Virus record (IMG/VR): IMGVR_UViG_3300047159_000064
Origin: a virus
Taxonomy: Duplodnaviria > Heunggongvirae > Uroviricota > Caudoviricetes
Reading direction: 5' to 3' (one strand)
DNA: 64,000 nt
Positions 300-22,275 of the stretch are shown piece after piece. Below the pieces are notes generated by a model that was not told where the DNA came from, did no database searches, and worked only from the letters and a program-made list of their open reading frames with translations. The number at the start of each line of letters is the position of its first letter. Positions within the stretch are counted from its first letter, which is position 1. A program made the position numbers and the translations under genes.

Positions 300-358
300 T
301 TGATTATATTATAGGCCTTATGCCTTTAGATGTAAACGATTTCCCAAAGAAAATCTCA
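300..358 (-). promoter_or_regulatory. early promoter box copy 1 (TTTACA -35, TATAAT-like -10, conserved CTTCGGAAAACCG upstream element)
   Basis: plus strand tgtaaacgatttcccaaagaaaatc with an attatatta -10 about 17 nt away on the minus strand. Confidence 0.55.
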
Positions 359-359
359 T

Positions 360-860
360 GAGGCCGAGAGCGGATAAATAGCATCGGGCGAATCCGCTCC
401 TGACTTCAGACTAATGCGACGATGTCGGGCACATCGCATCGATGTGTCGTACATGTCACACAGCAGGCTCAGATATATGACATCGCATCCGAGATCCGCC
501 GCATCGGAGATCCCGTCATCGGGCTGCCGTGACTAATTTCATCGAAGGTGCTATGCGGGGCTCGCATCGATGTGTCGTCGAAGAGTCGCACGGCGAAGCT
601 CGGATGCACGGCATCGTATCCGAGATCCGCCAACCGCCTCATACTAATTTCATCGATGGCACGATACGAGCCCTGCATCGGCGAATTCGACGAAAGCCTT
701 CGTTCGACTGAGCGACTAATCAGGCCAGATGACGATCGATGACGGGCATCCCGTCCGACGGGCCCGTCGGGCATGAGAAAAGGCGAGAGTCTCCTCTCGC
801 CCATCGATTTCGCAGATCGCTGTTTTTCCTCCTGGCAGCGGTCTCGAGCCAGACTCCGGC
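360..860. repeat. non-coding mosaic of direct repeats and palindromes (GACTAAT x4, CATCGCATCGATGTGTCGT x2, ATCCGAGATCCGCC x2, GACTAATTTCATCGAnGG x2)
   Basis: Repeated units occur in different reading frames, and the ORFs here (469-804, 529-711, 548-742) are low-complexity or Arg-rich. Confidence 0.55.
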
Positions 861-1111
861 TAGCAGTTCGCCCGCTGAATGTAGAACGAAACTCCGTTGT
901 CGCAGTTGTAAGTCTTGTCGTGCCTGTCGTCCCAGATCTCTCTGATGACCAAGCCCCGCTTGCCTACGATCGAGTACATCTTCTGCTCCGCCGCTTCTCG
1001 GCTTGCGAACAACTCTGACACATTATTCCCAAGGCCCACTGATGCGAGCGAGTAGACATGCCCCTCCGGATTACAGAACATCATCATGCTTTTAGCCTCC
1101 CTGATTTCCAT
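860..1111 (-). CDS. hypothetical protein (83 aa)
   Basis: ORF track; TAG stop; AT-rich -10 region upstream. Confidence 0.5.
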   Translation of the reverse strand: MEIREAKSMMMFCNPEGHVYSLASVGLGNNVSELFASREAAEQKMYSIVGKRGLVIREIWDDRHDKTYNCDNGVSFYIQRANC

Positions 1112-1200
1112 AATTAGTTTATTGTCGTTTCGGACATGAGGCCAAATTTGACGATTCGTCTCAACTTGTTATTTTAGCTTATTATTATACATCTAAAAAT

Positions 1201-1233
1201 GAAAAAACATGTCTTTTTGCGACATGTTTTTAC
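1201..1233. terminator. bidirectional rho-independent terminator (AAAAACATGTC-loop-GACATGTTTTT)
   Basis: Perfect inverted repeat flanked by an A-run and a T-run, downstream of gene 1276-1557. Confidence 0.5.
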
Positions 1234-1275
1234 GAAAATTCAATGTAACCGCTTACAATGACGAATTCTGATGCC

Positions 1276-1557
1276 CTAATCTGACAGAAGGTCTTCGGCT
1301 TCCTGAAGAAGCACTTTCTTTTCTACCGCGTTTGCGGCTAGCTTCACTGCGAGCAAGCTGGCCTTCGTTTTGTTGTAGACCGAGCTGAGCGAGTCGATTT
1401 CTTTCGCCGTGAGCCCCGATTTGTCTTCGTCTCCCGGGTCCGGGATGACCTTGGCCAACCCGTCTAATTTGACGGACAGGTCTTCGGCCTGCTTGTTGAG
1501 CTTTCCGAGCTTGTCGCAATCAGAAAGGTACTTCTTGAGATCCTCTTTGTTCTTCAT
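1276..1557 (-). CDS. hypothetical coiled-coil protein (start at internal Met MKNKEDLKK; upstream part of ORF 1276-1686 is Arg-rich overlap)
   Basis: ORF track; SD AAGGGGGAG immediately before ATG; TAG stop. Confidence 0.5.
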   Translation of the reverse strand: MKNKEDLKKYLSDCDKLGKLNKQAEDLSVKLDGLAKVIPDPGDEDKSGLTAKEIDSLSSVYNKTKASLLAVKLAANAVEKKVLLQEAEDLLSD

Positions 1558-1568
1558 CACTCTCCCCC

Positions 1569-1889
1569 TTATGCCTGAGCGACTTTCTCCGGCTCGGCTT
1601 CGGCGGGCTTGGCTTCTTCGGCGGGGGCGATGAGCTCGCCGTTCTCGTCGAACTTCGGTGCCGACGGATCTTCTTGGGCGAACCATTTCTGGTCGAGCGG
1701 ATAGGCGAAAAGCCGTTTCGATCCGTCTCCGAATTCGACTTCCGCGTAGCTCAAGCCGTTCGTCATGCTGTAGGCCTCGACGATCTTACCGCTCCCGAAG
1801 GTCGAATGGACGACCTCTTTGCCAGCGGCTTCTTCGATGACTGCTGTTTTCTTGGGGGCGATGTAGCCTGCGTTCTTAGTTTCTTCCAT
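1569..1889 (-). CDS. hypothetical protein (106 aa)
   Basis: ORF track; TAA stop; promoter box upstream. Confidence 0.5.
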   Translation of the reverse strand: MEETKNAGYIAPKKTAVIEEAAGKEVVHSTFGSGKIVEAYSMTNGLSYAEVEFGDGSKRLFAYPLDQKWFAQEDPSAPKFDENGELIAPAEEAKPAEAEPEKVAQA

Positions 1890-1917
1890 GATTTGTTATC
1901 TCCTTTTTCCTTATGAA

Positions 1918-1968
1918 ACAATCATATCGCTTTCTTTGACCGTTGTAAACGGTTTTCAGAAGAAAATC
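1918..1968 (-). promoter_or_regulatory. early promoter box copy 2
   Basis: minus strand TTTACA-17-TATGAT preceded by CTTCTGAAAACCG. Confidence 0.6.
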
Positions 1969-2316
1969 TTATCGGATGAAACCGGCATAGACGATGAAGT
2001 GGCGGATCTCGTTCCGCTTGGCCGAAGAGTATTTGGCTTTGTTGGTCGGATAGCTCTTCCCGCCGGCGATCACGGCATCGACATAGGCATTGAGCTGTTT
2101 GGTGGAGTGCATGGCATAAAGGGCATGGACGTATCGCTTAGCCGTTGTGCCTTCCATCTTGCATTCTGAATAGATGAGGTCGATTGCTTTCTTCTGCTTC
2201 GTCTTGAACGAAGAGCCGTTCTTGGAGACGATCTCCTTGCGATGCTTCTTGAAGACGTAAGACACAGACCCTTCCTTCTGATCGTACGTAATCGCTCGCT
2301 TGCTGTTCTTTTTCAT
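1969..2316 (-). CDS. hypothetical basic protein (115 aa)
   Basis: ORF track; TAA stop. Confidence 0.5.
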   Translation of the reverse strand: MKKNSKRAITYDQKEGSVSYVFKKHRKEIVSKNGSSFKTKQKKAIDLIYSECKMEGTTAKRYVHALYAMHSTKQLNAYVDAVIAGGKSYPTNKAKYSSAKRNEIRHFIVYAGFIR

Positions 2317-2339
2317 GGTTTCATTTACCTCTTGTGATT

Positions 2340-2392
2340 ATATTGTATCGCTTCTCTTCAGGCTTGTAAACCTTTTTCCGAAGTATTTTTTC
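2340..2392 (-). promoter_or_regulatory. early promoter box copy 3
   Basis: minus strand CTTCGGAAAAAGGTTTACA-17-TACAAT about 30 nt before ATG. Confidence 0.6.
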
Positions 2393-2759
2393 CGAGAAGC
2401 GGACCTTCTTTCAGAATGAAGATGTCATGGTCGGAAGAGAACGGAGCTTCGGCATAAGTCTTGATGTCCAGCTTCGTTTCGGTGGAATCGTCTTCGAATC
2501 TCGTGCAGACTCCTTTCCACTTGTAATAGCTGGAGTTGGAGTTCAGGATCTGGGCATGCACTCTGGCCAATGCTTTCTTGGCATCGTCCACGGTGTGGAA
2601 GCTGAAGACTTTGTCGACGTTCCAAGGTCGGTCTTTGCATTTGTCGCAGAGCAGGCTCTCCGACTTCCAGATGATCACGGCTCCTGCATCAGGATCGGCT
2701 TCTTCTGCGCACTCGATCCGGCCGAACATCGTCTGGCGAGCGTATTTGCTGTACTTCAT
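2358..2759 (-). CDS. hypothetical protein (133 aa); ends with TGA
   Basis: ORF track. Confidence 0.5.
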   Translation of the reverse strand: MKYSKYARQTMFGRIECAEEADPDAGAVIIWKSESLLCDKCKDRPWNVDKVFSFHTVDDAKKALARVHAQILNSNSSYYKWKGVCTRFEDDSTETKLDIKTYAEAPFSSDHDIFILKEGPLLGKNTSEKGLQA

Positions 2760-2783
2760 GTTTTGTTATCTCCTTTGATTGAT

Positions 2784-2835
2784 AATATTATAGCATGCAC
2801 ATATGGCAAAGTAAACGAAAAACCAAAGAATATTT
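2784..2835 (-). promoter_or_regulatory. early promoter box copy 4 (degenerate upstream element)
   Basis: TTTACT...TATAAT on minus strand. Confidence 0.4.
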
Positions 2836-2855
2836 TTTAAAGAATCAAGAATATT

Positions 2856-3113
2856 TTATTTATCGCACAAGACGAGAATCGCCGAAGGATACTGCTCTCT
2901 GAGTTTCGACTGGACCCAAGCGACGAAAGACGGATCTCCGTAGAGTTCGGCGTACCAGGAATCCGGCTTCTTCACCGCTTCCTCCAAAGTCAGCCCTGAG
3001 TACTCCATGACGTCTTCGTACCACACCTCGTGGCCTTCCGGCAGATCGCCTTCCCCTTTGACTCCGTACTCGAACACGTAATCCGTCTCCTTGACGTCAG
3101 AATCCTGTCTCAT
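2856..3113 (-). CDS. hypothetical protein (85 aa)
   Basis: ORF track. Confidence 0.5.
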   Translation of the reverse strand: MRQDSDVKETDYVFEYGVKGEGDLPEGHEVWYEDVMEYSGLTLEEAVKKPDSWYAELYGDPSFVAWVQSKLREQYPSAILVLCDK

Positions 3114-3129
3114 GACCTGTCCTCCCTAC

Positions 3130-3175
3130 TGATATAATTATAACGAAAAAGAACCCGCTTGTAAACGGGTTCTCT
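3130..3175 (-). terminator. terminator hairpin (GAACCCG-loop-CGGGTTC plus T-run) whose loop contains the TTTACA -35 of the next promoter; a TATAAT -10 follows
   Basis: Inverted repeat gaacccgcttgtaaacgggttc; on the minus strand it is followed by TTTTTCG then TATAAT. Confidence 0.45.
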
Positions 3176-3194
3176 GAGATTATTCGCCGGAAGT

Positions 3195-3757
3195 CTATCT
3201 GTCGCTCAAGCGAGGCTCGACCGTGCCGACCCCCGAGATCAGCCGTTTGCGGACGTCTGCGTCGACTTTCCCGCAGAGGATCTCCTTCGCCCTCTCAGGC
3301 CTGCAGGACAAAATCAGCGTTTTCGCCGGAATCCAGTATTCCTCCGGGCCGATGGTCGGATCGTACGTCGCTTTGATCGTCGTGTACTTGACTCTTGGGC
3401 CGAATGGGGTCAGCGCCACGTCGGAGTACCAGACTTTCTTCTTGTAGTACGCGAATCGGTAGCTCTCCGGAGCCGCTTTGATCGGAATCAGGCAGTTCTC
3501 GTCCTCGTAGAAGTCGGTCGTCTTCTCGAAGGGGATCGGCCTGACACGAAGCAGCTCGTAGACGTACAGATCGCCGGAACCTTTCGGAAATTTTCGTCAT
3601 CATCACGGCTTATCTTGGCATAAGGATAAAACGACACTCCTTTTCGTTTGATAATCAGCGCCTTTGCTTTTTCCGATAAATCAAATCCGCCATAATTTTT
3701 ATTAAGAATAATTTCCATATACTTCCTCTTTTTATATAAAACAATTATTTCATCCAA
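3195..3757 (-). pseudogene. hypothetical protein interrupted by a 1-nt frame break near 3590-3600 (ORFs 3488-3757 and 3195-3419); about 185 aa if repaired
   Basis: Protein-like sequence switches from one frame to the -1 frame at a T-run (gaaaatttcc); the downstream frame carries TGATGATGA. Confidence 0.5.
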
Positions 3758-3761
3758 CCGA

Positions 3762-4157
3762 TCATGCGTCTTCGCAATAAAGGCCTTTGATCACGCATTC
3801 ATCCACACCTCCGGGCTTATGGACGAAGACATTAATGTCATTCGTATAATATCCGTTTTGCTTGGAATAACATGGAATGAAATAACCATTGATCCGAAAT
3901 CCATACCCCGCTTCTTCGATTTTTAGCGTTTTAGCGTTCACAGTCTTGTCTTGCCAAAAACCCGTATCATTCAAAGCTGACCAGTCGGCGTAGTTGAAAC
4001 AGGTATTCCCTGTGTCGTTTTCAGGCCCATCATAGCTAATAATTGTCCCATCGGCCAATATCAGACTATCGCCATTGCCACTTACATGGTGAATTCCGGA
4101 CTCATCGGTTTCTTCATGAGCTGACGTCAATCCATCATACATATCTGCCATTCTCAT
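3762..4157 (-). CDS. hypothetical protein (131 aa); ends with TGA
   Basis: ORF track. Confidence 0.5.
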   Translation of the reverse strand: MRMADMYDGLTSAHEETDESGIHHVSGNGDSLILADGTIISYDGPENDTGNTCFNYADWSALNDTGFWQDKTVNAKTLKIEEAGYGFRINGYFIPCYSKQNGYYTNDINVFVHKPGGVDECVIKGLYCEDA

Positions 4158-4219
4158 AGGTTTTCTCCTTTGTTATGAAACAGTTCTTTCATCTAACTAA
4201 TTTAAAATAAAAACAAATA

Positions 4220-4408
4220 TTAATCTTCTCCCGAAATATTTTTTCTATCTATTGGTTTGACCCGTCTATAATAATACCAACCGCAACTGGGGCCACACTC
4301 ATCACAACGCCAATCACCAGATTGATAAATGCATTTTCCGCAACTAGGTTCTTCCTCATCGGCAGTAAAAGCAAAATACGGTTTGTCTTTTATCCAAACT
4401 ATTTCCAT
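4220..4408 (-). CDS. small Cys-rich zinc-ribbon-like protein (CGKC...CDEC)
   Basis: ORF track; two CxxC pairs. Confidence 0.45.
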   Translation of the reverse strand: MEIVWIKDKPYFAFTADEEEPSCGKCIYQSGDWRCDECGPSCGWYYYRRVKPIDRKNISGED

Positions 4409-4677
4409 CTTACCTTTCCTTTTCTAGACAGGCGGACGTTCTTCGGATCGCTCGGGACGTAATGGGCGAATTTGCCGATCTCGAACTTCGCCACGACCTT
4501 GCCGTTGCAGACGGTCTTCGGATTCGGCCAATTCTTCCGCTTAGTCAGGAAGAAAGGCTCGTATTTTAGATCCGGGCATCCGACGTAGCTCTCCGGACCC
4601 AGCACGTTCTTGACCAGCGTGCCTCCGCGCTTGACGACGTACAGCCTGCATTCTCCGTCCCACTCGATTTCTCCCAT
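4399..4677 (-). CDS. hypothetical protein (92 aa)
   Basis: ORF track; TAG stop. Confidence 0.45.
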   Translation of the reverse strand: MGEIEWDGECRLYVVKRGGTLVKNVLGPESYVGCPDLKYEPFFLTKRKNWPNPKTVCNGKVVAKFEIGKFAHYVPSDPKNVRLSRKGKVRWK

Positions 4678-4678
4678 G

Positions 4679-6885: not shown

Positions 6886-6911
6886 GGTTCGTTCCTCCGT
6901 TTCTCATTGAC

Positions 6912-6966
6912 GTTATTATTATGCCGCGCTTGATCCGATTTGTAAACGGAAAAACGAAGAAAATTC
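6912..6966 (-). promoter_or_regulatory. early promoter box copy 5
   Basis: tgtaaacggaaaaacgaagaaaattc with a ttattattatg -10. Confidence 0.5.
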
Positions 6967-7189
6967 GCAGAGCTTCCAAGAATCTGATCGCGGCGCCGCC
7001 GAAATCCGACTAATCTCGGCGTCGAAAAAGATCAGGTGCGGTTCTGCACCCGATCCGCACCCCGCACACCGGATCCTCGCAGGATCGAGACAGGATCCTG
7101 ACAGGGTCGGACATCGAGTCGAGCAGCCGCCATTAGTCGCAGATAATACGATGACGGAGCGGCCGAAATCCGTCATCGCCTCGAAAAAG

Positions 7190-7945: not shown

Positions 7946-8812
7946 TTATGCCGCCCTCAGCAGGTTCTTGCCGGTGCTCAGGCTCAGCATGATCTTCAGC
8001 ATCAGCGCCTCTTTGTCTTCGGGATTGTGGAACACGATCCTTATGCTTCCGCCGCATTTGCAGTAGTCGTTCGGAATGCCGAAATCCTGCGCCATCATCA
8101 GGCTGGCCAGCAACGCGCTGGGAAGCTCGGTCGGCACGAGCTGGTAGAACTCGGTCTCTTCGTGGCAGCTGTCGCAGACGATCTTGATTACCCACTCGCC
8201 GTCGTTGGCCGCTTTGAATCTGCCGAAGTTGGCGTCTGTCGGATGGGCTTCTACCGGAACGGCCGGAGCGAGCTCGGAATTCACCTTGCGGACGTATTTA
8301 AGCCAGCATTCGGAATGGCCTTGGTCCGATCCGTTGAAATACTCCGCCATCTTCGGGTCGGCTCTCATTGCGGCCGATCCGCCTTCCGATATGTAGTAGA
8401 ACCCGGCGGCTATGGCCTCCTGATTCTGAAGCACGTGGCACAGCTCGTGGAGCACGACGTTCTCGATCATGTCCTCAAGCCCGACTTTGGCCAGGTGCCT
8501 GTTGATGGACACCTCCTGCCTGAAGCCGTCTGCGTAGCTTCCGTTCAGCGTCGTCATCCCGAGGATGTTGGTTCCGTTGAACATCTCTTTCTTTATCTCG
8601 CATCTGCTCCAGTCTATCTTGAAGTCGGGCCCCAGGGATTCGATCCCCTTGACGCAGCTCCTGATTATCTCGTCCAGCCTCTGATCCGGCAGCGGATCCG
8701 CCGACTCAAGCAGCCTCATAGCCGCCTCGATGTCCATGTCCATGCTTTTAATCTCTCTTTCGCACAGATAATTTAGCGCTGGATTAGAACGCGGTTCCTC
8801 CGCCTTTGGCAA
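7946..8812 (-). CDS. zinc metallopeptidase-like protein (HELCH = HExxH), SprT/WLM-like
   Basis: VVLHELCHVLQ motif plus C-terminal Cys pairs. Confidence 0.4.
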   Translation of the reverse strand: MPKAEEPRSNPALNYLCEREIKSMDMDIEAAMRLLESADPLPDQRLDEIIRSCVKGIESLGPDFKIDWSRCEIKKEMFNGTNILGMTTLNGSYADGFRQEVSINRHLAKVGLEDMIENVVLHELCHVLQNQEAIAAGFYYISEGGSAAMRADPKMAEYFNGSDQGHSECWLKYVRKVNSELAPAVPVEAHPTDANFGRFKAANDGEWVIKIVCDSCHEETEFYQLVPTELPSALLASLMMAQDFGIPNDYCKCGGSIRIVFHNPEDKEALMLKIMLSLSTGKNLLRAA

Positions 8813-10895: not shown

Positions 10896-10919
10896 GGATT
10901 TTCTCCTTTTCCTTATGGT

Positions 10920-10972
10920 TTTATTATATCAGGCTTTTCGCCCGATGTAAACGATTTTCCGAAGTTTTTTTT
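10920..10972 (-). promoter_or_regulatory. early promoter box copy 6
   Basis: tgtaaacgattttccgaag with a ttattatat -10. Confidence 0.6.
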
Positions 10973-12210: not shown

Positions 12211-12227
12211 GTTTGTTTTCCTCCAAC

Positions 12228-12285
12228 TGTTATTATTATAGGCCTGCGAAAGCTGAAAGTAAACGGTTTTCCGAAGATTATCTTC
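12228..12285 (-). promoter_or_regulatory. early promoter box copy 7
   Basis: agtaaacggttttccgaag with a ttattattata -10. Confidence 0.6.
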
Positions 12286-12604: not shown

Positions 12605-12624
12605 TTTGGTGTTCCTCTTTTCTT

Positions 12625-12685
12625 ATGATATCATTATAAGCTGGAAAAACCGTTTTGTAAACGGTTTTCCTGAGAAAATTGACGC
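12625..12685 (-). promoter_or_regulatory. early promoter box copy 8
   Basis: tgtaaacggttttcctgag with a cattataag -10. Confidence 0.6.
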
Positions 12686-12986: not shown

Positions 12987-13142
12987 AGCCGATTCCTCCT
13001 TCGCCTGCCCTATCAGGGGTGGCTGTGCTCTTTCATCCAGGCGGTTCTGATCTGCTTGGCTTTCTCTCCGACTGTCATCGGCTTCTTGGCCGACGAATGA
13101 TGGTATCTGCTCTTTGTCATCGTTTCAATGACCTCCTATTGA

Positions 13143-13200
13143 TGCTATCATATCGCGCTCGATTCGGAAAGTAAACCGTTTTCCGAGGTTTATTTTCGGC
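13143..13200 (-). promoter_or_regulatory. early promoter box copy 9
   Basis: agtaaaccgttttccgagg with a tatcatatcg -10. Confidence 0.55.
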
Positions 13201-13438: not shown

Positions 13439-13461
13439 AGTGATTTCCTCCTCACTTGATT

Positions 13462-13510
13462 CTATTATATGCCTGCCTGATTGAGATGTAAACGGTTTTC
13501 CGAAGAAAAA
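13462..13510 (-). promoter_or_regulatory. early promoter box copy 10 (TTTACA-17-TATAAT exact)
   Basis: minus strand cttcggaaaaccgTTTACAtctcaatcaggcaggcaTATAAT. Confidence 0.65.
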
Positions 13511-13550
13511 AAAAACAAAGCCCGATATCAGGAGGAATTGATATCGGGCC
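13506..13550 (-). terminator. rho-independent terminator (GCCCGATATCA-loop-TGATATCGGGC plus T-run)
   Basis: 11-bp stem followed by TTTGTTTTTTTTTT on the minus strand. Confidence 0.6.
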
Positions 13551-15893: not shown

Positions 15894-15914
15894 GAATCAA
15901 TCCTCCTTGATTCT

Positions 15915-15968
15915 GGATATATTATGCCGCCAATAAAGCCCGATGTAAACGATTTTCCGAACTTTATT
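15915..15968 (-). promoter_or_regulatory. early promoter box copy 11
   Basis: tgtaaacgattttccgaac with an atatattatgcc -10. Confidence 0.6.
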
Positions 15969-16701
15969 TCTGGACGACGTACTGATGGACGTTGACGACG
16001 CAGCACATCTTCCAGCGCTCGGTCATGCTCTCGTCGACCTCGGCTTTCCCGGTCTGCCAGTTGCGCCAGTAAGGATGGACGAAGACGATCTTGGCGCACG
16101 CCTTGATGACTTTGGCCACCGGCTCTTTGGTGTCGGCGTCCAGGATGACCGCGCCTGGGACTACGGTGGCGATGACCGCGTCTTTGGCGGCTTTATCGTC
16201 TTTCGCCCTGACGGCCTCGGCGAAGCTGGAATAGGCCGAGCTCGCGTCGTAGTAGGCCTTCTGCTTCTCGGCGACGCAGAGGTTGATGTAGTTGGAGGCG
16301 AAGACCGTGGCGATCTCCTTCTCGTTCTTGAACATGCTTCCGATGAGCTCCATCATGTCGACCTGGGCCGGATGGTCTTTGCGGCCGAAGTCGCCGATGG
16401 ACCCGACGTTGATCTTGATGCTGTCGAGATAGAGGTACATGTCGAAGTCGGCCCCGAATTCCGTCTTGCCGTCCGGAAGCAGCATGTCGACGCTGACCCT
16501 GGCGTACTGGGCCCCGAGGCAGAGATGAGAGTAATCGTAATCGTGGTCGAGGCGGTCGAAATGGAATTCCGCCTTATAGCCGAAAAGCGCCGTGGCCATC
16601 GCGGCAGCCACCGCGTCTTTGGCCGCTTTGTCGTATTCCTTGAACGCCTTGTCGGACGCGTCTTTGAGCTCGGCGATCTTAGCTTCTTCTTCTTTCGTCA
16701 T
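15964..16701 (-). CDS. hypothetical protein (245 aa)
   Basis: ORF track. Confidence 0.5.
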   Translation of the reverse strand: MTKEEEAKIAELKDASDKAFKEYDKAAKDAVAAAMATALFGYKAEFHFDRLDHDYDYSHLCLGAQYARVSVDMLLPDGKTEFGADFDMYLYLDSIKINVGSIGDFGRKDHPAQVDMMELIGSMFKNEKEIATVFASNYINLCVAEKQKAYYDASSAYSSFAEAVRAKDDKAAKDAVIATVVPGAVILDADTKEPVAKVIKACAKIVFVHPYWRNWQTGKAEVDESMTERWKMCCVVNVHQYVVQK

Positions 16702-16726
16702 GGTTGTTTCCTCCTCAACCTTACGA

Positions 16727-16785
16727 GAATATCATACGCCCATTCAAGGCAGTTGTAAACGGTTTTCCGCAATTTATTTTCTGCC
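16727..16785 (-). promoter_or_regulatory. early promoter box copy 12
   Basis: tgtaaacggttttccgcaa with an atatcatacg -10. Confidence 0.6.
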
Positions 16786-16853: not shown

Positions 16854-17114
16854 CTAAAACCGATAGTCGTACGTCACGACGACCTCTTTGACGAACACCG
16901 AGCCCCATTGGCACTTTATCTCGCCGGTCGCTTTGTCGTACGTCCCGCCGTTCCCCGCGATGTAAGCCTGAGCAGCGAGCCCTGGCGAGCGGTAGAGCTT
17001 GGGCGAATTCGTCGCCTTGATCTCCTCGAGCGGCACGAAATGCCAGCTCCAGCTGCGGCAGCCTACCCCGCCTTCGCCGTTGACTATGCAGTATCTCTTG
17101 TACGTCCTGACCAT
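16854..17114 (-). CDS. hypothetical protein (86 aa, MVRTYKRYCIVNG...); the longer ORF 16854-17450 is Arg-rich overlap
   Basis: SD GGAGGCGG before the internal ATG. Confidence 0.45.
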   Translation of the reverse strand: MVRTYKRYCIVNGEGGVGCRSWSWHFVPLEEIKATNSPKLYRSPGLAAQAYIAGNGGTYDKATGEIKCQWGSVFVKEVVVTYDYRF

Positions 17115-17131
17115 CCTGCCGCCTCCTTGGG

Positions 17132-17701: not shown

Positions 17702-17729
17702 TTTAGTTGGCTCCTTTTTCTCTTAACGC

Positions 17730-17785
17730 CATTATTATGCCGCGGAACGGCTGCTTGTAAACGGTTTTCCGAAGTTTTTTTTCGG
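17730..17785 (-). promoter_or_regulatory. early promoter box copy 13
   Basis: tgtaaacggttttccgaag with a cattattatg -10. Confidence 0.6.
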
Positions 17786-17830
17786 CGGCCCCAAGCGGTT
17801 AGTCGGCCTTTTCTATTTCTTTTTTTCTAG

Positions 17831-18046
17831 CTACTCTTTGTCGAGCAGGTACCTGAACAGGCCCGGCTGGAACATCCAGACGGCCGGAAGCACGCAGAAC
17901 GCGGTCAGGCCTTCTATGACGACGTTCCAGACGCTGAGCCCCAGAAGCGGGATCATTATCGCGTTGGCTATCGTCGGGGCTAGCAGAATCGTCAGAGCGA
18001 TGAGCAGGTTGACGGAGAATTCGAGCAGTCTTTTAATTTTGTCCAT
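17831..18046 (-). CDS. small membrane protein with 2 TM helices (holin-like, speculative)
   Basis: Two hydrophobic helices in 71 aa. Confidence 0.45.
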   Translation of the reverse strand: MDKIKRLLEFSVNLLIALTILLAPTIANAIMIPLLGLSVWNVVIEGLTAFCVLPAVWMFQPGLFRYLLDKE

Positions 18047-18069
18047 ATGCGGGCTCCTTTAAGCCTCAT

Positions 18070-18125
18070 GAAAATATCATATCGCGGAAAAGCGGGTTCG
18101 TAAACGGCTTTCCGAAGAAAATCCG
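18070..18125 (-). promoter_or_regulatory. early promoter box copy 14
   Basis: cgtaaacggctttccgaag with an atatcatatcg -10. Confidence 0.55.
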
Positions 18126-18197
18126 CCGAGCGTCCGACGGGCCAGTCGGGCGGATCCGTCATCCGGCCGGACGGAAACGGCCTAGTCGAAAAGCTCA

Positions 18198-18241
18198 TGC
18201 GCATAAGTATTATAACAATAATACTTATGCGCATGAGGGAT
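18198..18241. repeat. 44-bp perfect palindrome CTCATGCGCATAAGTATTAT-AACA-ATAATACTTATGCGCATGAG
   Basis: Arms are exact reverse complements; shares the core AAGTATTAT with the palindrome at 22186. Confidence 0.6.
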
Positions 18242-18276
18242 CCCATTAGTCGAATCTGAATGCAATGGGATGGCCC

Positions 18277-18726
18277 CTAATCTGCCTCTCCGGAGGGGTA
18301 AGTCGCCGACAGCAGGGCCAGAGCCTCGGAGGCGACGTCGAAATCCCCCAGGCCGCAGCAGTCCAGCCAGACCTTCAGCGTCCTGCCCCAGCACACGAGC
18401 CTGCGATCCGAATGCCCGCCGTTCTGGAACCTCTCGACCCTGGCCCCAGGCCAATCCCTGAACCTGGCGACCGTGTCGAGCTCCGAGTCTATGACTTTCT
18501 CCATGTCGTCCTTGTATTGGGTGTTGCCCGAGCCGAACTCCAGCGTCCCGCCTTTCCACGCGGCGATCAGCTGGTCTCCCATGGGGTCCTCGAAGAAGTC
18601 GACTTCCTGTCCTCTGTAGCTGAGGTGATCGGCGGGCTTTTCCGAAATCCCCCTGATTGCCGAAGAGGCCGAAATCTCCCTGATTCCGCCCTGCCCGGAA
18701 ACCGAAATCTCCCTGATTTCGCCCAT
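18277..18726 (-). CDS. hypothetical protein; N-terminal 30 codons are encoded by three tandem copies of the palindromic GAAATCTCCCTGATT motif (true start may be the internal Met near 18582)
   Basis: ORF track; MGEIREISVSGQGGIREISASSAIRGISEK comes from the repeats. Confidence 0.4.
   Translation of the reverse strand: MGEIREISVSGQGGIREISASSAIRGISEKPADHLSYRGQEVDFFEDPMGDQLIAAWKGGTLEFGSGNTQYKDDMEKVIDSELDTVARFRDWPGARVERFQNGGHSDRRLVCWGRTLKVWLDCCGLGDFDVASEALALLSATYPSGEAD
18640..18725. repeat. three tandem copies of the palindromic motif CGAAATC-YCCCT-GATTYCG
   Basis: ccgaaatccccctgattgccg / gccgaaatctccctgattccg / accgaaatctccctgatttcg. Confidence 0.6.
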
Positions 18727-18730
18727 CCGC

Positions 18731-21131
18731 CTAAGCCTCCAGCACCATGCTCTTCAGCTGGTCCGAGAAACGCTCGTTAGGCACGTCGTCTATGACGTAA
18801 TCGCTGAGATCCTTCTTCTCGCCGACTATCTTCGCCACCCGCTCGTCTATCGTGCCGGCGCAAGAGAGCACCACGACGTTCGCCGGCCTCTGATTGGTGA
18901 CCCTCCATATGCGATCCGTGGCCTGAGAGAACTCCGAGTACGTGTAAGGGGTGTCCAAGGCTATCATGTAGCTGGCCGCGTTGAGCGTTATGCCGGTCGA
19001 GCATTTGCCGAACGTGCCGATGAACGCCTGCTCCTTCGGGTCGGTCTGGAACCTCTCGACGTCGGCGGAGAACACGTCGTCCGGCGTATCTCCAGTGTTT
19101 ATCGAGCCTTTGACCTTGCCTCTCAGCATGTCCGCCAGCTCGTATATCGATTCTTTGAACGTGCCGAAAACGACTACTTTCTCGCCCTGTGACGCGAGCT
19201 CCTCGACGAGCTCGGCGCAGCGCTCCAGCTTGGTGGCAGGTATCTGCTGGGAAGTCAGTATGCTCGGGCAGGACGTGGCCTGCCTGAGCCTGGTCGTGAG
19301 GGCCAGCAGGTTCGCCGGCTTCAGATCTATCTTGTCGGCCTCTTCGCGGACGCCGTCGGCGATCGCGTCGTAGAAGCGCCTGTGCTCGTCGTCCATGTCG
19401 AGCGATTCGTAGGTCACCGTCTTAGGCGGCAGAGAGTCCCTGACCTGGTCGAGCGTCCTCCTGAGGCTGCAGGAGTCGAGCTCCTCCTTCAGCAGATCGA
19501 GGTTCTTGTATCCGACTATCTGGCTGTCGTTGAATCCGCCGAATTCGCAGTATTGCGACTTGAACATCGTCAGCGTCGATCTGTCGTTCTCCGTCCACGA
19601 CAGCGGGACGTACATCGAAATCGGGCTGTTGGTCAGAAGGGTGCCGGTGGCTGCGACTTCGAACGGGGCCTTCAGCTTGAGCAGATTGGTGCCCTGGGTC
19701 GATGACTTAGTCGCGCAGTTATGGACTAAAATGCCGTTCGCATAGAAATTATGGTTGCCCTCGACCGCGAGATCGTAAACTGGCTCTGCTGCTATTACTT
19801 TTTTAGATACTAACTTTGCCATTTTTATGCCAGCTCCCGCCGCCGCTTAAGCCCAGATACCTATTTAATGCGCGAATTTGATTGTATGGGATAAGATAGA
19901 TAAGTTCCAGATGCCTATTAGGGCAATTGTTTTTGTATTTGAGATAATCTCGCTTATAATCTTCGATCTTTACGCCATGAGCCGATATAAAAGCTTCCCA
20001 GTGTAACTTTTTTCTTTCCTTGCCGGAAATCTTTGCGGCGTCTTTCATCCTTTGTCTGTACTCTGGCGTTTTTCACAGCTCTGCTGAGCGCTCTTGCATT
20101 GCGGCTATGCCTTTAGCAATCTTTATATCATCGTCCGCAGTTAAATCTTTTGCCTTTACCCAGCCGCGGTTGTTGGTGTATATCTTGTGCGACGCCGTGC
20201 ATTTTAGCTTTATTGTTCTGTTATCGTCGATCAAGGTCAGCTCCAGAAGCGGCTCTCTCGGCTGCGATTCCGTTACGGACGAAATCTGCCGAAATTCGTT
20301 TTGCCCTGTTTTCTTATTGTAGGAAAGCACCTTAGGCAGAGCTTTTAATTGGCTGATTTCGCCGATAGTAAATTTTCCGGCGTCGGTCAATACTACAGAA
20401 TCTCCGGTAAGGCATTTATGGATTTCGTCGACCGCTATCATGCCGAATTTCGTCTCTGACTTCAGGAAGGCCGCGGTCACCGCGGGGGACCTGAGCGTCT
20501 CGACGTTCGTGATCACGAAAAACTCGGCGATCTCGCCTTTGAGCTCTTTGGCCCTCTCAGGCAGAGACGCGTAATGCACCCTGCCCTTCTTGCTTATCCT
20601 CTCGCCTAAGATCCTGCAGCTCTCGTTCGAGAACCTGGAGATCTCTTTCTTCCAGTTCTGCTTGACCGCGTTGACCCCGCAGACTATGAAGCAGTGCTCT
20701 ATGGCCCCTCTGCGCTTGAGGGCTTCGGCCAGTCAGATTATTTCGGCAGTCTTGCCCAGGCCCATCGAGTCGAGCAGAAGCCACTTGGGGTGTTTTAGCC
20801 CGAAGTCGACCGCTTCTATCTGATGCCTGAACGGCGGCTGCTTGAGGCCGTCTATCTCTTCCTGGGACAGCGGGCGGAATCCCCCTGATTCCGACTCGCC
20901 TTCCGGCCAATCCAGGAGATTCAGCCTCACCTGATCGATGAAAACGGCCGAGTCCAGCAATTGGGCCAGGCAGCTCGCCGGTATCTCTCAGATCCGGTCT
21001 TTCTTGTGGTAGTATCAGTTCGGCAGGGCCTTCAGCGCGGCGACCAAGGCCTCGCTGTACTCCGACCTGACCACGAAGCTGGAAAGCCCGCTGACTTTGC
21101 CCGGCGGGCTGACTTCCGTAATCTCTATCAT
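18731..21131 (-). CDS. SNF2-family helicase containing an intein (with HNH-like endonuclease) after motif II; 4 in-frame TGA codons (about 21015, 20988, 20733, 20073) and a +1 frame break at an A5 run near 19822-19850
   Basis: GLGKT Walker A; DEIHK then CLTGDS intein N-terminus; VYDLAVEGNHNFYANGILVHN-C intein C-terminus; ATGTLLTNSP motif III; QATDRIWRVTNQ motif VI; ORFs 20733-20960, 20073-20579 and 19803-20048 share one frame, separated only by TGA. Confidence 0.65.
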
Positions 21132-21240
21132 GGCCTAAAGCCTCCTAAGAATCCTCGACGCTAAAAAGCGCCCAAAGGCGAAATCTCCCCGATTCCGGCT
21201 CCTTCGCGGCGCGCGAAAACGAAATCTCCCCGATTCCGCC

Positions 21241-21564
21241 TTAGTCTCCCAGTATGGAGGAATAAGGGGTCGTGAAATCGAGCTCTTCGTCCTCCGGCTT
21301 CGTCTTGACGGTCAGAGTCGCCTCTACGACGAACGGCTTCCCGCAGCTCTCGCACGTGAAGTGCTCGACCAGGGTCGGCTCGTCGCCTTCCTTGTATTCC
21401 TCGTAGATGATCTTGCCGAGGGCGTCCTTGATGACGGACGACGGCTTGCCCAGGATCTCCCCCGGCATGAACACCTCCGTCGGGTGGTACTCGCAGTGGC
21501 AGTAAGGGCAGACCACCGTGGCCTTCTTCTGCTGATCGGCTTTCTGGCCGTTTGATGCTGGCAT
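21241..21564 (-). CDS. zinc-ribbon protein (CPYCHC...CESCG)
   Basis: ORF track; two Cys pairs. Confidence 0.5.
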   Translation of the reverse strand: MPASNGQKADQQKKATVVCPYCHCEYHPTEVFMPGEILGKPSSVIKDALGKIIYEEYKEGDEPTLVEHFTCESCGKPFVVEATLTVKTKPEDEELDFTTPYSSILGD

Positions 21565-21720
21565 AGATAAAGTCTCCTTCGGGCCCGCGCTTGGGCGGGG
21601 CTATGGCGCAATCGCCTCTGATATACTATACGGCTTTCGCCTGCGCGGTATGGCCCGAAATTTGGCTGAATTCAGACATTCGCCTAGGCCGGAAAAACGA
21701 GATCTCCCCGATTTCGGCCT

Positions 21721-21835
21721 CGCATGCGCGCGCACGCATATATACGCGCGCCCGCGCGCGCCTCTTGTCTGGATCTATATGATCCAGCGCTATACGCGCG
21801 CACGCACGCGCGCGCCTCTTGTCTGGATCTATAGG
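21721..21835. repeat. two direct repeats of about 50 bp containing alternating CG tracts (cgcgcgcnCGCGCGCGCCTCTTGTCTGGATCTATA) plus the GGATCTATATGATCC palindrome
   Basis: Visible duplication; (CG)n stretches have Z-DNA potential. Confidence 0.55.
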
Positions 21836-21949
21836 ACTGGAGTATTATAATACAGACATACTAAAGATAGTTAATAATAAGTCATACGCTAAAGCGTATG
21901 ACGGGGGACAGGCCCCCGGGCCGCCTGCTTCAGCTCAGCCCTTTCCCTT

Positions 21950-22110
21950 CAGTTTTTAATAATTTAATAAATCATTAATTTAATAAATCATTAAGTCATT
22001 AAATTATTAGTTTAATAAATCATTAAATTATTAAGTCATTAAATTATTAATTTATTAAGTTAATAAATTATTAAGTCATTAAATTATTAAATCATTAAAA
22101 ACGCGAAAAC
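21950..22110. repeat. AT-rich tandem iteron array (units TTAATAAATCATTAA and ATTATTAAGTCATTAAATTATT)
   Basis: Nearly pure A/T tandem repeats inside a GC-rich genome; candidate origin or DNA-unwinding element. Confidence 0.6.
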
Positions 22111-22185
22111 ATCAGCCGAAATCTGACTAATTAGCCAATCGCAAAGAAAAGGCCTTTTCGAGAGATCGCCGTTTTCGGATTTTAA

Positions 22186-22217
22186 GTATTATTATTATCT
22201 ATAATAATAATACTTAC
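22186..22217. repeat. 32-bp palindrome AAGTATTATTATTAT-CTA-TAATAATAATACTT
   Basis: Exact inverted repeat. Confidence 0.55.
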
Positions 22218-22275
22218 CCATTGTATCATACCGCCTTTCGGGGCCAAAGTAAACGTTTTTCCGAAGAAAATCTCC
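22218..22275 (-). promoter_or_regulatory. early promoter box copy 15 (TTTACT-17-TATGAT) pointing into the repeat/origin region
   Basis: agtaaacgtttttccgaagaaaatctcc with an attgtatcatacc -10. Confidence 0.55.

What the first reader, a model, noticed from the sequence alone, without database searches (positions are those of the whole stretch)
300..22275. Sixteen copies of a conserved early promoter cassette (CTTCGGAAAACCG-TTTACA-N17-TATAAT)
Upstream of many small minus-strand genes the plus strand shows TGTAAACGGTTTTCCGAAG(A/T-rich). On the transcribed strand this is a near-consensus -35 TTTACA with 17-18 nt spacing to a TATAAT-like -10, preceded by an invariant 13-nt element CTTCGGAAAACCG. 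The upstream element is far more conserved than a sigma70 UP element needs to be, suggesting a phage or host activator or repressor binding site, or a recombination hotspot for modular gene exchange. One copy has its -35 inside the loop of the upstream gene's terminator (3143-3174).
Basis: seen in the sequence. Interest (0 to 1): 0.6.

Follow-up and report, generated by a model that had tools for sequence, protein, structure and literature searches.

The report
Repeated early promoters of a T4-like phage
A new T4-like phage, probably of an anaerobic Gram-positive host, carries at least 20 near-identical strong promoters in front of its small early genes, built like phage T4's early promoters with a lineage-specific upstream extension: a real feature of a known kind.

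Summary
Sixteen copies lie at 296-22274, all on the minus strand, and none occurs elsewhere in the 64 kb. Near-identical relatives carry four more copies beyond the window's left edge.

Each copy reads: A/T block (-57..-49), CTTCGGAAAACCG (-48..-36), TTTACA, a 17-nt non-conserved G+C-rich spacer, TATAAT, ATAATC, a purine at +1, then a ribosome-binding site (RBS) and ATG at +18..+27. "Invariant" is overstated: only 3 of 16 copies carry the exact 13-mer.

The window is a distant T4-like myovirus. Part of the 13-mer is the known T4-type early-promoter signature: G at -36 completing GTTTAC, and an A-tract near -40. The lineage-specific parts are CTTCGG and CC. Low-GC relatives keep GTTTACA-N17-TATAAT but have a different upstream sequence.

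Among paralogs only the functional blocks are conserved, so these are not recent duplicates. Between orthologs the 13-mer changes about as fast as other intergenic DNA, while the two hexamers barely change.

My reading is host-RNA-polymerase early promoters with a UP-like upstream module. I found no evidence for a dedicated regulator. No indel or replacement between relatives has a mapped boundary at a cassette, so the test for a PeSL-type recombination role was negative on a small sample.

The parts
22213..22274 (-). Cassette 1, the most upstream copy: gagatttt CTTCGGAAAAACG TTTACT N17 TATGAT. No gene follows directly. It fires into a 16-nt perfect palindrome and an AT-rich repeat array.
18064..18125 (-). 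Cassette: CTTCGGAAAGCCG TTTACG N17 TATGAT. ATG of a 71-aa gene at +24. Preceded by a terminator-like hairpin at 18140-18123.
17721..17782 (-). Cassette: exact 13-mer, TTTACA, 16-nt spacer, CATAAT. ATG of a 189-aa gene at +27.
16719..16780 (-). Cassette: TTGCGGAAAACCG TTTACA N17 TATGAT. ATG of a 245-aa gene at +24.
15909..15970 (-). Cassette: GTTCGGAAAATCG TTTACA N17 CATAAT. The upstream gene's stop codon ends at -50. ATG of a 107-aa gene (DUF4313) at +22.
13452..13513 (-). Cassette: exact 13-mer, TTTACA N17 TATAAT. Preceded by a strong intrinsic terminator at 13550-13519 plus a T10 run. ATG of an 82-aa gene at +20.
13135..13196 (-). Cassette: CCTCGGAAAACGG TTTACT N17 TATGAT. Upstream stop codon ends at -50. 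ATG of a 35-aa ORF at +21.
12621..12682 (-). Cassette: CTCAGGAAAACCG TTTACA N17 TATAAT. The -35 lies in the loop of the hairpin GGAAAACCGTTT/AAACGGTTTTTCC. ATG of a 108-aa gene at +23.
12223..12284 (-). Cassette: exact 13-mer, TTTACT N17 TATAAT. Upstream stop codon ends at -50. ATG of a 243-aa gene at +19.
10911..10972 (-). Cassette: CTTCGGAAAATCG TTTACA N17 (with TG before the -10) TATAAT. ATG of a 122-aa gene at +22.
6906..6967 (-). Cassette, T-tract variant: CTTCGTTTTTCCG TTTACA N17 CATAAT. ATG of a 49-aa gene (DUF7230) at +27.
3125..3186 (-). Cassette: CTCAGAGAACCCG TTTACA N17 TATAAT. The -35 sits in and around the loop of a terminator-like hairpin (3175-3148) whose T-run lies in the spacer. 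ATG of an 85-aa gene at +18.
2775..2836 (-). Cassette, the weakest copy and a T-tract variant: CTTTGGTTTTTCG TTTACT N17 TATAAT. Found only by the weight matrix. ATG of a 133-aa gene at +22.
2330..2391 (-). Cassette: CTTCGGAAAAAGG TTTACA N17 TACAAT. The upstream ORF reads through the 13-mer and the -35, and its stop codon ends at -23. ATG of a 115-aa gene at +20.
1909..1970 (-). Cassette: CTTCTGAAAACCG TTTACA N17 TATGAT. Upstream stop codon ends at -55. ATG of a 106-aa gene at +26.
296..357 (-). Cassette: CTTTGGGAAATCG TTTACA N17 TATAAT. An RBS and ATG follow. The gene runs off the left edge of the window; it is 105 aa in relative L092.

Best explanation
These are the early promoters of a previously undescribed T4-like myovirus. 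They are read directly by the host's primary-sigma RNA polymerase as soon as the DNA enters the cell.

**How each part is proposed to work.**
- Each cassette is a maximal promoter. Sigma region 4 reads G-TTTACA (-36..-30), and sigma region 2 reads TATAAT after an exact 17-nt spacer.
- Transcription starts at a conserved C(-1)/purine(+1), 7 nt after the -10.
- A leader of only 18-27 nt carries a strong GGAGG-type ribosome-binding site.
- The upstream half is the A/T block at -57..-49 plus CTTCGG-AAAA-CCG at -48..-36. I read it as a lineage-specific UP-like module. The two A/T tracts are the likely contact points for the alpha-subunit C-terminal domains. The G+C bases between them are a weakly selected frame, not the site of a separate protein.
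- About 20 or more such promoters cut the roughly 30-kb early region into short units of mostly 1-3 genes, though some stretches of 4-5 kb carry none. Each unit is expressed strongly and at once.

**Shown here:** the anatomy, copy number, strand, position relative to genes, block-specific conservation, the resemblance to T4, and the restriction to one lineage.

**Inferred:** promoter activity, early timing, the alpha-CTD contact, and the Gram-positive anaerobic host. The host guess rests on the GGAGG ribosome-binding sites and the anaerobic ribonucleotide reductase NrdD.
For: **Real and non-random.**
- 13 hits against 0.03 expected.
- 16 copies by weight matrix, all on the minus strand and all within 296-22274.
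- They are the top sigma-70-type sites in the region.

**Promoter geometry.**
- TTTAC is present in 20 of 20 copies and G at -36 in 20 of 20.
- A at -11 and T at -7 are present in 20 of 20.
- C at -1 is present in 19 of 20, followed by a purine in all 20.
- The start codon lies at +18..+27 in 14 of the 15 window copies with a gene called downstream.
- In about half the copies the upstream stop codon ends at -50..-76, so the cassette fills the whole intergenic gap.

**Selection, not recent duplication.** Mean pairwise identity among the 20 paralogs:

| Block | Pairwise identity |
|---|---|
| -35 hexamer | 91% |
| -10 hexamer | 84% |
| 13-mer | 72% |
| A/T block | 51% |
| Spacer | 34% |
| Far upstream | 27% |

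**T4-like context.** A relative with a 97% identical tail-sheath protein encodes Gp23, gp13, gp19 and a T4-type baseplate protein. The window encodes a sheath, a baseplate wedge, tail fibres and NrdD.

**Match to published T4-type early promoters.**
- They have GTTTAC at -36..-31, a strongly conserved G at -36, and an A-rich stretch at -40..-44 that resembles a UP element (PMC1524935).
- T4 early promoters are described as 'uber' UP/-35/TGn/-10 promoters with additional regions of consensus (PMC2988021).
- My scan of T4 bases 1-50000 found 12 TTTAC-N17-TATAAT-like sites, 10 of them with G at -36. Several carry the shared upstream sequence TTTTTCAnAAAGTT, which has a T-run, an A-run and G-TTTAC in the same order as here.

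**Comparison with relatives.** Low-GC relatives (33-39% GC, 60-65% identical helicase) keep G-TTTACA-N17-TATAAT. Their upstream sequence is a T-tract, TTTTGTCA, with no CTTCGG.

**A/T-tract behaviour.** Two copies carry a T-tract instead of the A-tract and are still full cassettes.

**A separate promoter class.** GCTAAATTA stands before the structural genes, so the cassette is specific to one temporal class.

**Ortholog divergence.** The hexamers are strongly constrained, at 2/180 changes in L065. The 13-mer changes at 17/195 (Fisher p = 0.0006 against the hexamers). Its rate is not significantly different from the intergenic DNA plus spacer (p = 0.08).
Against: - No transcription data exist for this phage. 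Promoter activity and early timing are inferred.
- The 13-mer carries 15.2 bits, more than the -35 hexamer. It contains six well-conserved G/C positions (C-48, C-45, G-44, G-43, C-37, G-36) that the classical all-A/T UP consensus does not explain.
- The A-tract sits at -42..-39, about 1-2 nt closer to the -35 than the E. coli and T4 positions. The E. coli figure is from my memory of Estrem et al. 1998/1999.
- Unlike T4 and the low-GC relatives, these promoters mostly lack the TG extended -10. They have G(-16)-C/G-G(-14) instead.
- In the most divergent relative (L098) the 13-mer changed less than the spacer: 3/52 against 13/68. Some sequence-specific constraint therefore exists.
- The host is unknown, so alpha-CTD preferences cannot be checked.
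Confidence: 0.6

Rival explanations
1. The 13-mer is the operator of a dedicated regulator, either phage-encoded or host. One candidate is a dimer on the small dyad CGG-N4-CCG centred near -40.5. That position abuts the -35, so a bound protein could shut off all early promoters together, or boost them.
For: - The upstream block carries 15.2 bits, more than one recogniser would seem to need.
- CGG and CCG form a 3-bp dyad. One orthologue reads CTTCGGTTTTCCG, which is the exact inversion of the CGGAAAACCG core.
- The element keeps a fixed position in all copies and never occurs away from a promoter.
- In L098 it changed less than the spacer.
- How T4 shuts off its early promoters is still unexplained (PMC2988021).
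Against: - Orthologous copies change the element at 8.7% (L065) and 5.8% (L098), against about 1-2% for the hexamers. Several copies carry 3-4 changes and remain intact cassettes.
- The dyad arms are only 3 bp long and are broken in several copies, for example AGG, CGG and ACG in place of CCG.
- Near-consensus promoters need no activator.
- No helix-turn-helix or other DNA-binding domain appears in my Pfam scan of ten of the larger early-region proteins. None appears in the precomputed Pfam hits for the rest of the ~30-kb region.
- The motif is not a multi-copy element in any of 185,579 species genomes.
Confidence: 0.15
2. The cassettes are PeSL-type mobile regulatory cassettes, as in RB49/phi1, T4/PST and KVP40/nt-1. 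On this view their sequence uniformity is maintained by, and serves, homologous recombination that inserts, deletes and swaps the small genes between them.
For: - The layout matches the published description: an AT-rich region, sigma-70-like boxes, then the Shine-Dalgarno sequence and start codon of the next gene. The copies are densely clustered among ORFans in a T4-like phage (PMC4122927, PMC2839356).
- The PST/T4 PeSL promoter consensus is TTTACW-N17-TAYWAT (PMC4122927).
- Gene content does vary between close relatives.
Against: - The defining stable stem-loop terminator just upstream of the promoter is absent from most copies. Terminator-like sites number 26 against 22.3 expected by chance. 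Folding the upstream 66 nt gives z-scores mostly between -2 and +2.
- None of the five indels or replacements seen between relatives has a mapped boundary at a cassette. They are window 3577-4429, window 23855-25288, two in L092 against L093, and the L098 replacement ending at window 17156.
- The divergence profile against L065 shows no identity breakpoints at cassettes.
- Only the functional blocks are alike. The longest runs of shared sequence are about 20 nt, which is short for homologous exchange.
Confidence: 0.1
3. The upstream element acts in RNA on read-through transcripts. UUUUC-UUCG-GAAAA would fold into a UUCG-tetraloop hairpin that stabilises or processes the 3' end of the upstream message.
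For: C-UUCG-G is the classic stable tetraloop. In copies 22266 and 18117 and in L092 8567, a T-run before it and the A-run after it can pair.
Against: - Only about 3 of 20 copies can form the full hairpin. In the others the upstream run is A-rich (AAAAAAAA, AAATAAA) or the loop is altered.
- There is no covariation.
- No Rfam family matches.
Confidence: 0.03

Closest known systems
Phage T4-type early promoters ('uber' UP/-35/TGn/-10 promoters; consensus GTTTAC at -36..-31)
   Same: - The context is the same: a T4-like phage, in front of small early genes and ORFans.
- The G at -36 plus TTTAC, the 17-nt spacer and TATAAT all match.
- An A-rich tract lies just upstream of the -35, with an A/T run further upstream.
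- Both have extra consensus beyond the sigma-70 elements.
- Each phage lineage has its own version of the upstream consensus (PMC1524935, PMC2988021; T4 scan).
   Different: - The upstream module here contains conserved G/C bases (CTTCGG, CC).
- The A-tract is 4 nt long and sits at -42..-39.
- There is no TG extended -10 in most copies; G-C/G-G occupies -16..-14 instead.
- The genome is 50-57% GC, and the host is probably a Gram-positive anaerobe, not an enterobacterium.
- No Alt or ModA homologue was found in the window, though only part of the genome was seen.
PeSL (promoter-early stem-loop) cassettes of T4-like phages
   Same: [quoted passage not shown] Both have an AT-rich block, a strong sigma-70-type promoter and a Shine-Dalgarno sequence, and both are concentrated in the plastic small-gene region (PMC2839356, PMC4122927).
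   Different: Most copies have no stable stem-loop terminator, and the indels seen between relatives are not associated with cassettes. Mini-circles cannot be tested with these tools.
UP element of strong bacterial promoters (rrnB P1 type; alpha-CTD binding site at -40 to -60)
   Same: The position matches (-57 to -38). So does the two-part A/T layout of a distal A/T run plus a proximal AAAA. The function in making very strong promoters also matches. The consensus NNAAAWWTWTTTTNNAAAANNN is from my memory of Estrem et al. 1998.
   Different: The classical UP element has no conserved G/C positions. Here six G/C positions are 75-100% conserved, and the A-tract is shifted by about 2 nt. Alpha-CTD binding was not tested.
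Early promoter arrays of host-takeover regions in large Gram-positive phages (for example SPO1); recalled from memory, not tested here
   Same: Many closely spaced, very strong primary-sigma promoters each drive one or a few small early genes.
   Different: The phage lineage is different (T4-like capsid and tail genes). No sequence comparison was made.

Membership tests
T4-type early promoter | GTTTAC at -36..-31, with a strongly conserved G at -36 (PMC1524935) | tested here: met
   G at -36 in 20/20 copies and TTTAC in 20/20. The same holds in 7/7 promoters of the low-GC relatives and in 10/12 T4 sites.
T4-type early promoter | 17-nt spacer and a TATAAT-like -10 with A at -11 and T at -7 | tested here: met
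   The spacer is 17 nt in 15/16 window copies and 16 nt in one. A at -11 and T at -7 are present in 20/20.
T4-type early promoter | A-rich, UP-like sequence at about -40..-44 | tested here: met
   AAAA at -42..-39 in 15-17 of 20 copies. Two window copies have TTTT(T) there instead. The tract is offset by 1-2 nt from the T4 position.
T4-type early promoter | TGn extended -10, or GT-rich sequence 5' of -12 | tested here: not met
   TG precedes the -10 in only 2 of 16 copies. The consensus is G(-16) C/G(-15) G(-14). The feature is present in the low-GC relatives. Nolan et al. describe it as variably conserved among T4-like phages.
T4-type early promoter | Located 5' of early genes and novel ORFs in a T4-like phage genome, in the direction of transcription | tested here: met
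   All copies are co-oriented with the genes. The ATG lies at +18..+27 in 14 of the 15 window copies with a gene called downstream. T4-like structural genes are present.
T4-type early promoter | Transcription by unmodified host RNA polymerase immediately after infection | not testable with these tools
   This needs transcript 5'-end mapping or in vitro transcription.
PeSL cassette | [quoted passage not shown] | tested here: met
PeSL cassette | Stable stem-loop just upstream of the promoter that acts as a terminator | tested here: not met
   Clear terminator-like hairpins occur at only 3-4 of 16 copies (13550-13519, 18140-18123, 3175-3148, and a partial one at 12674). Terminator-like sites are not enriched, at 26 against 22.3 expected. 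Upstream folds are not unusually stable.
PeSL cassette | Indels and replacements between closely related phages lie at or next to the cassettes | tested here: not met
   Five events were examined and none has a mapped boundary at a cassette. The sample is small.
PeSL cassette | Recombination between neighbouring cassettes yields mini-circles | not testable with these tools
   This needs inverse PCR on phage DNA.
UP element | A/T-rich sequence between -40 and -60 with distal and proximal subsites | tested here: inconclusive
   A distal A/T block (-57..-49, 17% GC) and a proximal AAAA are present. They are separated and flanked by conserved G/C bases that are foreign to the UP consensus.
UP element | Bound by the alpha-subunit C-terminal domain and stimulates transcription | not testable with these tools
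   This needs footprinting or transcription assays with alpha-CTD-deleted polymerase.
Transcription-factor operator | Stronger purifying selection than the surrounding non-coding DNA between orthologous sites | tested here: not met
   Pooling L065 and L098, the 13-mer changed at 20/247 positions (8.1%). Intergenic DNA plus spacer changed at 211/3058 (6.9%), and the hexamers at 3/228 (1.3%). The result is heterogeneous: in L098 alone the element changed less than the spacer.
Transcription-factor operator | A cognate DNA-binding protein encoded nearby | tested here: not met
   No DNA-binding domain appears in the Pfam scan of ten larger early-region proteins. None appears in the precomputed Pfam hits on the called genes of the ~30-kb region. 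Most proteins there have no hit, so absence is weak evidence.

The most novel reading that the evidence does not exclude
The G/C frame of the upstream module (CTTCGG ... CCG, with its small CGG-N4-CCG dyad next to the -35) may not be a passive frame. It could be the recognition site for a second player. One candidate is a phage factor that switches all 20 or more early promoters off together at the early-to-middle transition. Another is a virion-delivered modifier of RNA polymerase, analogous to Alt, that makes the polymerase prefer exactly this sequence. This would make early-promoter shut-off or preference in T4-like phages approachable, a question the T4 literature still lists as unexplained.
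Probability: 0.12. Interest if true: 0.7.

Novelty: new member of a known kind. Interest (0 to 1): 0.35.

Why it matters
- It gives a clean early-promoter consensus of about 65 nt for an uncultured lineage of large T4-like phages. The best assembly of this lineage is about 200 kb. Related proteins are common in ENA, JGI and Logan metagenomes.
- It can be used to annotate early genes and operon structure in that lineage.
- It offers a set of 20 or more naturally varied strong promoters for a probably Gram-positive anaerobic host.
- It shows that the T4 early-promoter signature (G-TTTAC with an A/T tract near -40) persists far outside the enterobacterial T4 relatives, across a GC shift from about 35% to about 55%. 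The sequence further upstream is re-invented in each lineage.
- It does not reveal a new mechanism.

Tried and rejected
- **Relatives in the reference phage collection.** Megablast of 12.5 kb of the region found nothing.
- **Other genomes carrying the motif.** I scanned IMG/VR, JGI metagenome contigs (re-scored with the full matrix) and one genome per species of GTDB. Each returned only scattered hits at about the number I estimate for chance. One short contig (L034) had two exact matches, but no locus held a full cassette when re-scored. The element is therefore neither a host promoter motif nor widespread.
- **Exact-protein look-up and viral-contig search with the 250-aa protein.** Neither returned anything.
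- **Cassettes in 60-65% relatives (L024-L026) and in the structural-gene locus L023.** None was found.
- **Recombination hotspot.** Indel mapping and a 100-bp divergence profile showed no association with cassettes.
- **Stem-loop between CTTCGG and an upstream CCGAAG-like sequence.** It pairs in about 9 of 20 copies, but the folds are no more stable than shuffled sequence, so I dropped it as a general feature.
- **UUCG-tetraloop RNA hairpin.** It is possible in only about 3 of 20 copies.
- **Known RNA families.** There are none in the window, and no tRNAs either.
- **Alt/ModA-like ADP-ribosyltransferase or a DNA-binding regulator among window proteins.** Pfam found none in the 20 proteins scanned.
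- **Intermediate-distance relatives through an ORFan next to two cassettes.** Only 88-95% identical homologues exist. No relative at a distance suited to phylogenetic footprinting could be obtained.

Full report

Yes. The 19-mer CTTCGGAAAACCGTTTACA with up to 3 mismatches occurs 13 times, always on the minus strand. Dinucleotide-preserving shuffles give 0.03. Allowing 5 mismatches gives 15 copies. A weight matrix (PWM) built from these finds a 16th, weaker copy at 2775-2836.

All 16 lie between 296 and 22274. None lies in the remaining 42 kb or on the plus strand. The generic promoter scan ranks the same sites at the top, with 25 sigma-70-like sites against 9.7 expected.

- The 13-mer is exact in only 3 of 16 copies. 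The others have 1-6 mismatches.
- The spacer is 17 nt in 15 copies and 16 nt in one. It is never 18.
- The -35 is TTTACA (11 copies), TTTACT (4) or TTTACG (1).
- The conserved cassette is longer than described.

The remark about a -35 inside a terminator loop is correct. The hairpin lies at 3175-3148 with a T-run in the spacer. A second copy (12674) has a comparable hairpin.

**2. Anatomy**

I aligned the 16 window copies with four further copies found in near-identical relatives beyond the window's left edge (L092 positions 7568, 8567, 12312 and 13314). The cassette reads, on the transcribed strand:
- an A/T block at -57..-49 (17% GC, with A at -53 in 18/20 and T at -52 in 17/20);
- CTTCGG at -48..-43;
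- AAAA at -42..-39;
- CC at -38/-37;
- G at -36 (20/20);
- TTTAC (20/20) followed by A or T;
- a 17-nt G+C-rich spacer without sequence conservation except G at -16 and G/C at -15/-14;
- TATAAT (A at -11, A at -8 and T at -7 in 20/20);
- A at -6, then T-C at -2/-1 (C in 19/20) and a purine at the predicted start.

The start codon of the next gene lies at +18..+27 in 14 of the 15 window copies with a gene called downstream. It is preceded by a GGAGG-type ribosome-binding site.

In about half the copies the stop codon of the upstream gene ends at -50..-76, so the cassette is the whole intergenic region. In one copy (2383) the upstream reading frame runs through the 13-mer and the -35.

The most upstream copy (22266) has no gene behind it. 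It faces a 16-nt perfect palindrome, an AT-rich 8-nt-period array and GC-alternating direct repeats.

Conservation is block-specific. The table gives values among the 20 paralogs.

| Block | Mean pairwise identity | Information |
|---|---|---|
| -35 hexamer | 91% | 10.2 bits |
| -10 hexamer | 84% | 9.2 bits |
| 13-mer (-48..-36) | 72% | 15.2 bits |
| A/T block (-57..-49) | 51% | 6.9 bits |
| Start region (-6..+6) | 49% | 7.8 bits |
| Spacer | 34% | 4.9 bits |
| Sequence upstream of -58 | 27% | 2.0 bits |

The copies are therefore not recent duplicates of one another. What is shared is kept by selection on function.

**3. What genome is this?**

No record in the reference phage collection is similar at the DNA level. 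The window encodes a tail sheath, a baseplate wedge, tail fibres and an anaerobic ribonucleotide reductase. The best phage match of the reductase is 40% identical, from Clostridium phage c-st.

A relative with a 97% identical sheath lies on a 113-kb JGI contig. It carries the T4 major capsid protein Gp23, gp13, gp19 and a T4-type baseplate protein. The window is thus a distant T4-like myovirus.

Nearly identical DNA (92-99%) occurs in several JGI, ENA and Logan assemblies, including a 199.8-kb contig. The strong GGAGG sites and NrdD suggest a Gram-positive anaerobic host, but that is inference.

The cassette region holds mostly small proteins without known domains. The exceptions on record are these:
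- an intein-split SNF2 helicase;
- a SprT-like protein;
- a cytidylyltransferase-like protein;
- DUF4313 and DUF7230;
- further downstream, HNH, HD_4, a Tad8-family protein and Thg1.

This is typical early-gene content.

**4. Related sequences**

Relatives whose helicase is 60-65% identical (L024-L026) have 33-39% GC and no copy of the cassette. Their intergenic regions still carry G-TTTACA, a 17-nt spacer with TG before the -10, and TATAAT. Upstream of that they have TTTTGTCA, not CTTCGGAAAACC.

So G-TTTACA-N17-TATAAT with an A/T tract near -40 is shared across the family. CTTCGG and CC belong to the high-GC lineage only.

Exact-pattern scans of IMG/VR, the JGI metagenome contigs and one genome per GTDB species gave 22, 33 and 25 scattered loci. 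That is about the number I estimate for chance. One short contig held two exact matches, but none of the loci contains a full cassette. The element is not a host-genome motif at this stringency.

**5. Evolution of orthologous copies**

The table gives divergence from the window by sequence class.

| Class | L065 (96.7% identical, 15 shared cassettes) | L098 (92.5% identical, 4 cassettes) |
|---|---|---|
| Coding | 2.8% | 6.5% |
| Other intergenic | 5.7% | 15.4% (46/299) |
| Spacer | 4.7% | 19.1% (13/68) |
| -35 hexamer | 1.1% | 0/24 |
| -10 hexamer | 1.1% | 1/24 |
| 13-mer | 8.7% (17/195) | 5.8% (3/52) |

In L065 the 13-mer differs from the hexamers at p = 0.0006. It does not differ from the intergenic DNA plus spacer (p = 0.08).

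Individual copies change CTTCGG to CTTTAA, ATTCGA or CTTCTA, or TTGCGG to TTGTGG or CTGCGG, and stay complete cassettes. One T-tract copy reads CTTCGGTTTTCCG in L065.

The hexamers are under strong constraint. The 13-mer is under weak, degenerate constraint. That pattern is expected for a strength-tuning element. It is not expected for an operator with strict sequence requirements.

**6. Tests of the alternative roles**

*Recombination.* Five indels or replacements between relatives were mapped:
- window 3577-4429, an 852-bp segment that replaces 86 bp and interrupts a 238-aa gene of L065/L092;
- window 23855-25288;
- two small ones between L092 and L093;
- the gene replacement in L098 that ends at window 17156.

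None has a mapped boundary at a cassette. The 100-bp divergence profile shows no breakpoints there.

*Terminator or stem-loop.* Terminator-like sites are not enriched, at 26 against 22.3. Only 3-4 cassettes have one. The 66 nt upstream do not fold better than shuffled sequence, although CTTCGG pairs with a CCGAAG-like sequence in about 9 of 20 copies.

*RNA element.* No Rfam family matches. The UUUUC-UUCG-GAAAA hairpin is possible in only about 3 copies.

*Regulator.* No DNA-binding domain was found. I scanned twenty of the larger window proteins. The precomputed Pfam hits on the remaining neighbouring genes show none either.

**7. Comparison with what is known**

Nolan et al. (PMC1524935) state three things:
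- Predicted early promoters of T4-like phages resemble GTTTAC at -36 to -31.
- The G at -36 is strongly conserved in some of these genomes.

Hinton (PMC2988021) describes T4 early promoters as 'uber' UP/-35/TGn/-10 promoters. They have additional regions of consensus and out-compete host promoters. [quoted passage not shown]

My scan of T4 bases 1-50000 found 12 TTTAC-N17-TATAAT-like sites, 10 of them with G at -36. Several share TTTTTCAnAAAGTT upstream. The order of elements there is the same as here: T-run, A-run, two or three bases, then G-TTTAC. The cassettes meet most defining features of T4-type early promoters. The exception is the TG extended -10, which is itself variable among T4-like phages.

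The PeSL cassettes (PMC2839356, PMC4122927) share the layout and the genomic setting. The PST/T4 PeSL consensus is even TTTACW-N17-TAYWAT. However, their defining stem-loop terminator and their association with indels were tested here and not met.

**8. Verdict**

The feature is real, and it is well explained as the early-promoter set of a new T4-like phage lineage. The striking 13-mer is partly the known T4-type signature (G at -36 and the A-tract). The rest is a lineage-specific, weakly constrained G/C frame within a UP-like module.

Promoter activity, early timing and the alpha-CTD contact are inferred, not shown. A dedicated factor that binds the G/C frame is not excluded, and I put it at roughly 10-15%. 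That reading is the only one that would make this more than a new member of a known kind.

Noticed in passing
window 21600-22230 (read on the minus strand): The roughly 650 nt behind the most upstream cassette are non-coding. They hold a 16-nt perfect palindrome (22183-22216), about 150 nt of AT-rich repeats with an 8-nt period (21956-22107), and two 38-nt direct repeats containing alternating CG runs (21745-21836). A promoter facing an AT-rich, easily unwound stretch recalls transcription-primed origins such as T4 oriF/oriG. That comparison is from memory. In relatives L024 and L025 the nearby helicase gene sits close to a contig end.
   Followed up: partly
window 61479-61487, 59087-59095, 51068-51076, 39959-39967, 8769-8777 (minus strand), and a GCTAAACTA variant in the gap upstream of the 71-aa gene at 35910-36125: This is a second promoter-like motif, (t)GCTAAATTA(tat). 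It has 5 exact copies against 0.5 expected, and all are on the minus strand. Four lie just upstream of the sheath, baseplate and fibre-region genes and one lies inside the early region. The same 9-mer stands before nrdD and other genes in the 33-39% GC relatives L024-L026. Because it is conserved across the family it is probably read by a phage-encoded factor, perhaps a late or middle class analogous to T4's TATAAATA.
   Followed up: partly
window 3577-4429: An 852-bp segment with ORFs of 131 and 62 aa is present in the window and in L064. In L065 and L092 it is replaced by 86 bp. In those two relatives the flanks form a single 238-aa gene. This may be a mobile insertion splitting a gene.
   Followed up: partly
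window 18731-20579: An SNF2-family helicase is split by an intein. The N-terminal part carries Intein_splicing/HINT (20073-20579). An 81-aa ORF follows (19803-20048). The C-terminal part carries the intein end plus Helicase_C (18731-19822). Most homologues are uninterrupted proteins of about 575 aa. Relative L026 has a GIY-YIG endonuclease gene at the same place.
   Followed up: partly
L098 1-893 versus window 17156 to about 18100; window 23855-25288 versus L060 1419-1713: Otherwise 92-99% identical genomes differ by gene replacements. L098 has genes of 100 and 104 aa behind a weak cassette-like promoter, where the window has genes of 71 and 189 aa. L060 has 294 bp where the window has 1433 bp.
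   Followed up: partly
whole window and L024-L026: Base composition is uneven. The early region at 4-22 kb has 53-58% GC, and the structural region has 43-51%. Relatives whose helicase is 60-65% identical have only 33-39% GC. This is a large compositional shift within one phage family.
   Followed up: no
L092 10824-12315 and L093 12988 onward (DNA just beyond the window's left edge): The early region continues with HNH, HD_4 and Tad8-family (PF25189) genes and a Thg1-like gene, interspersed with further cassettes.
   Followed up: no
window 28902-30539, 31221-32774 and 22891-23550: Three unexpected domains occur in a phage. One is a DFP (DNA/pantothenate metabolism flavoprotein) domain in a 545-aa protein. 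The second is an SPFH/Band 7 plus flotillin-like protein of 517 aa. The third is a RyR-domain protein on the opposite strand, next to the divergence point of transcription.
   Followed up: no
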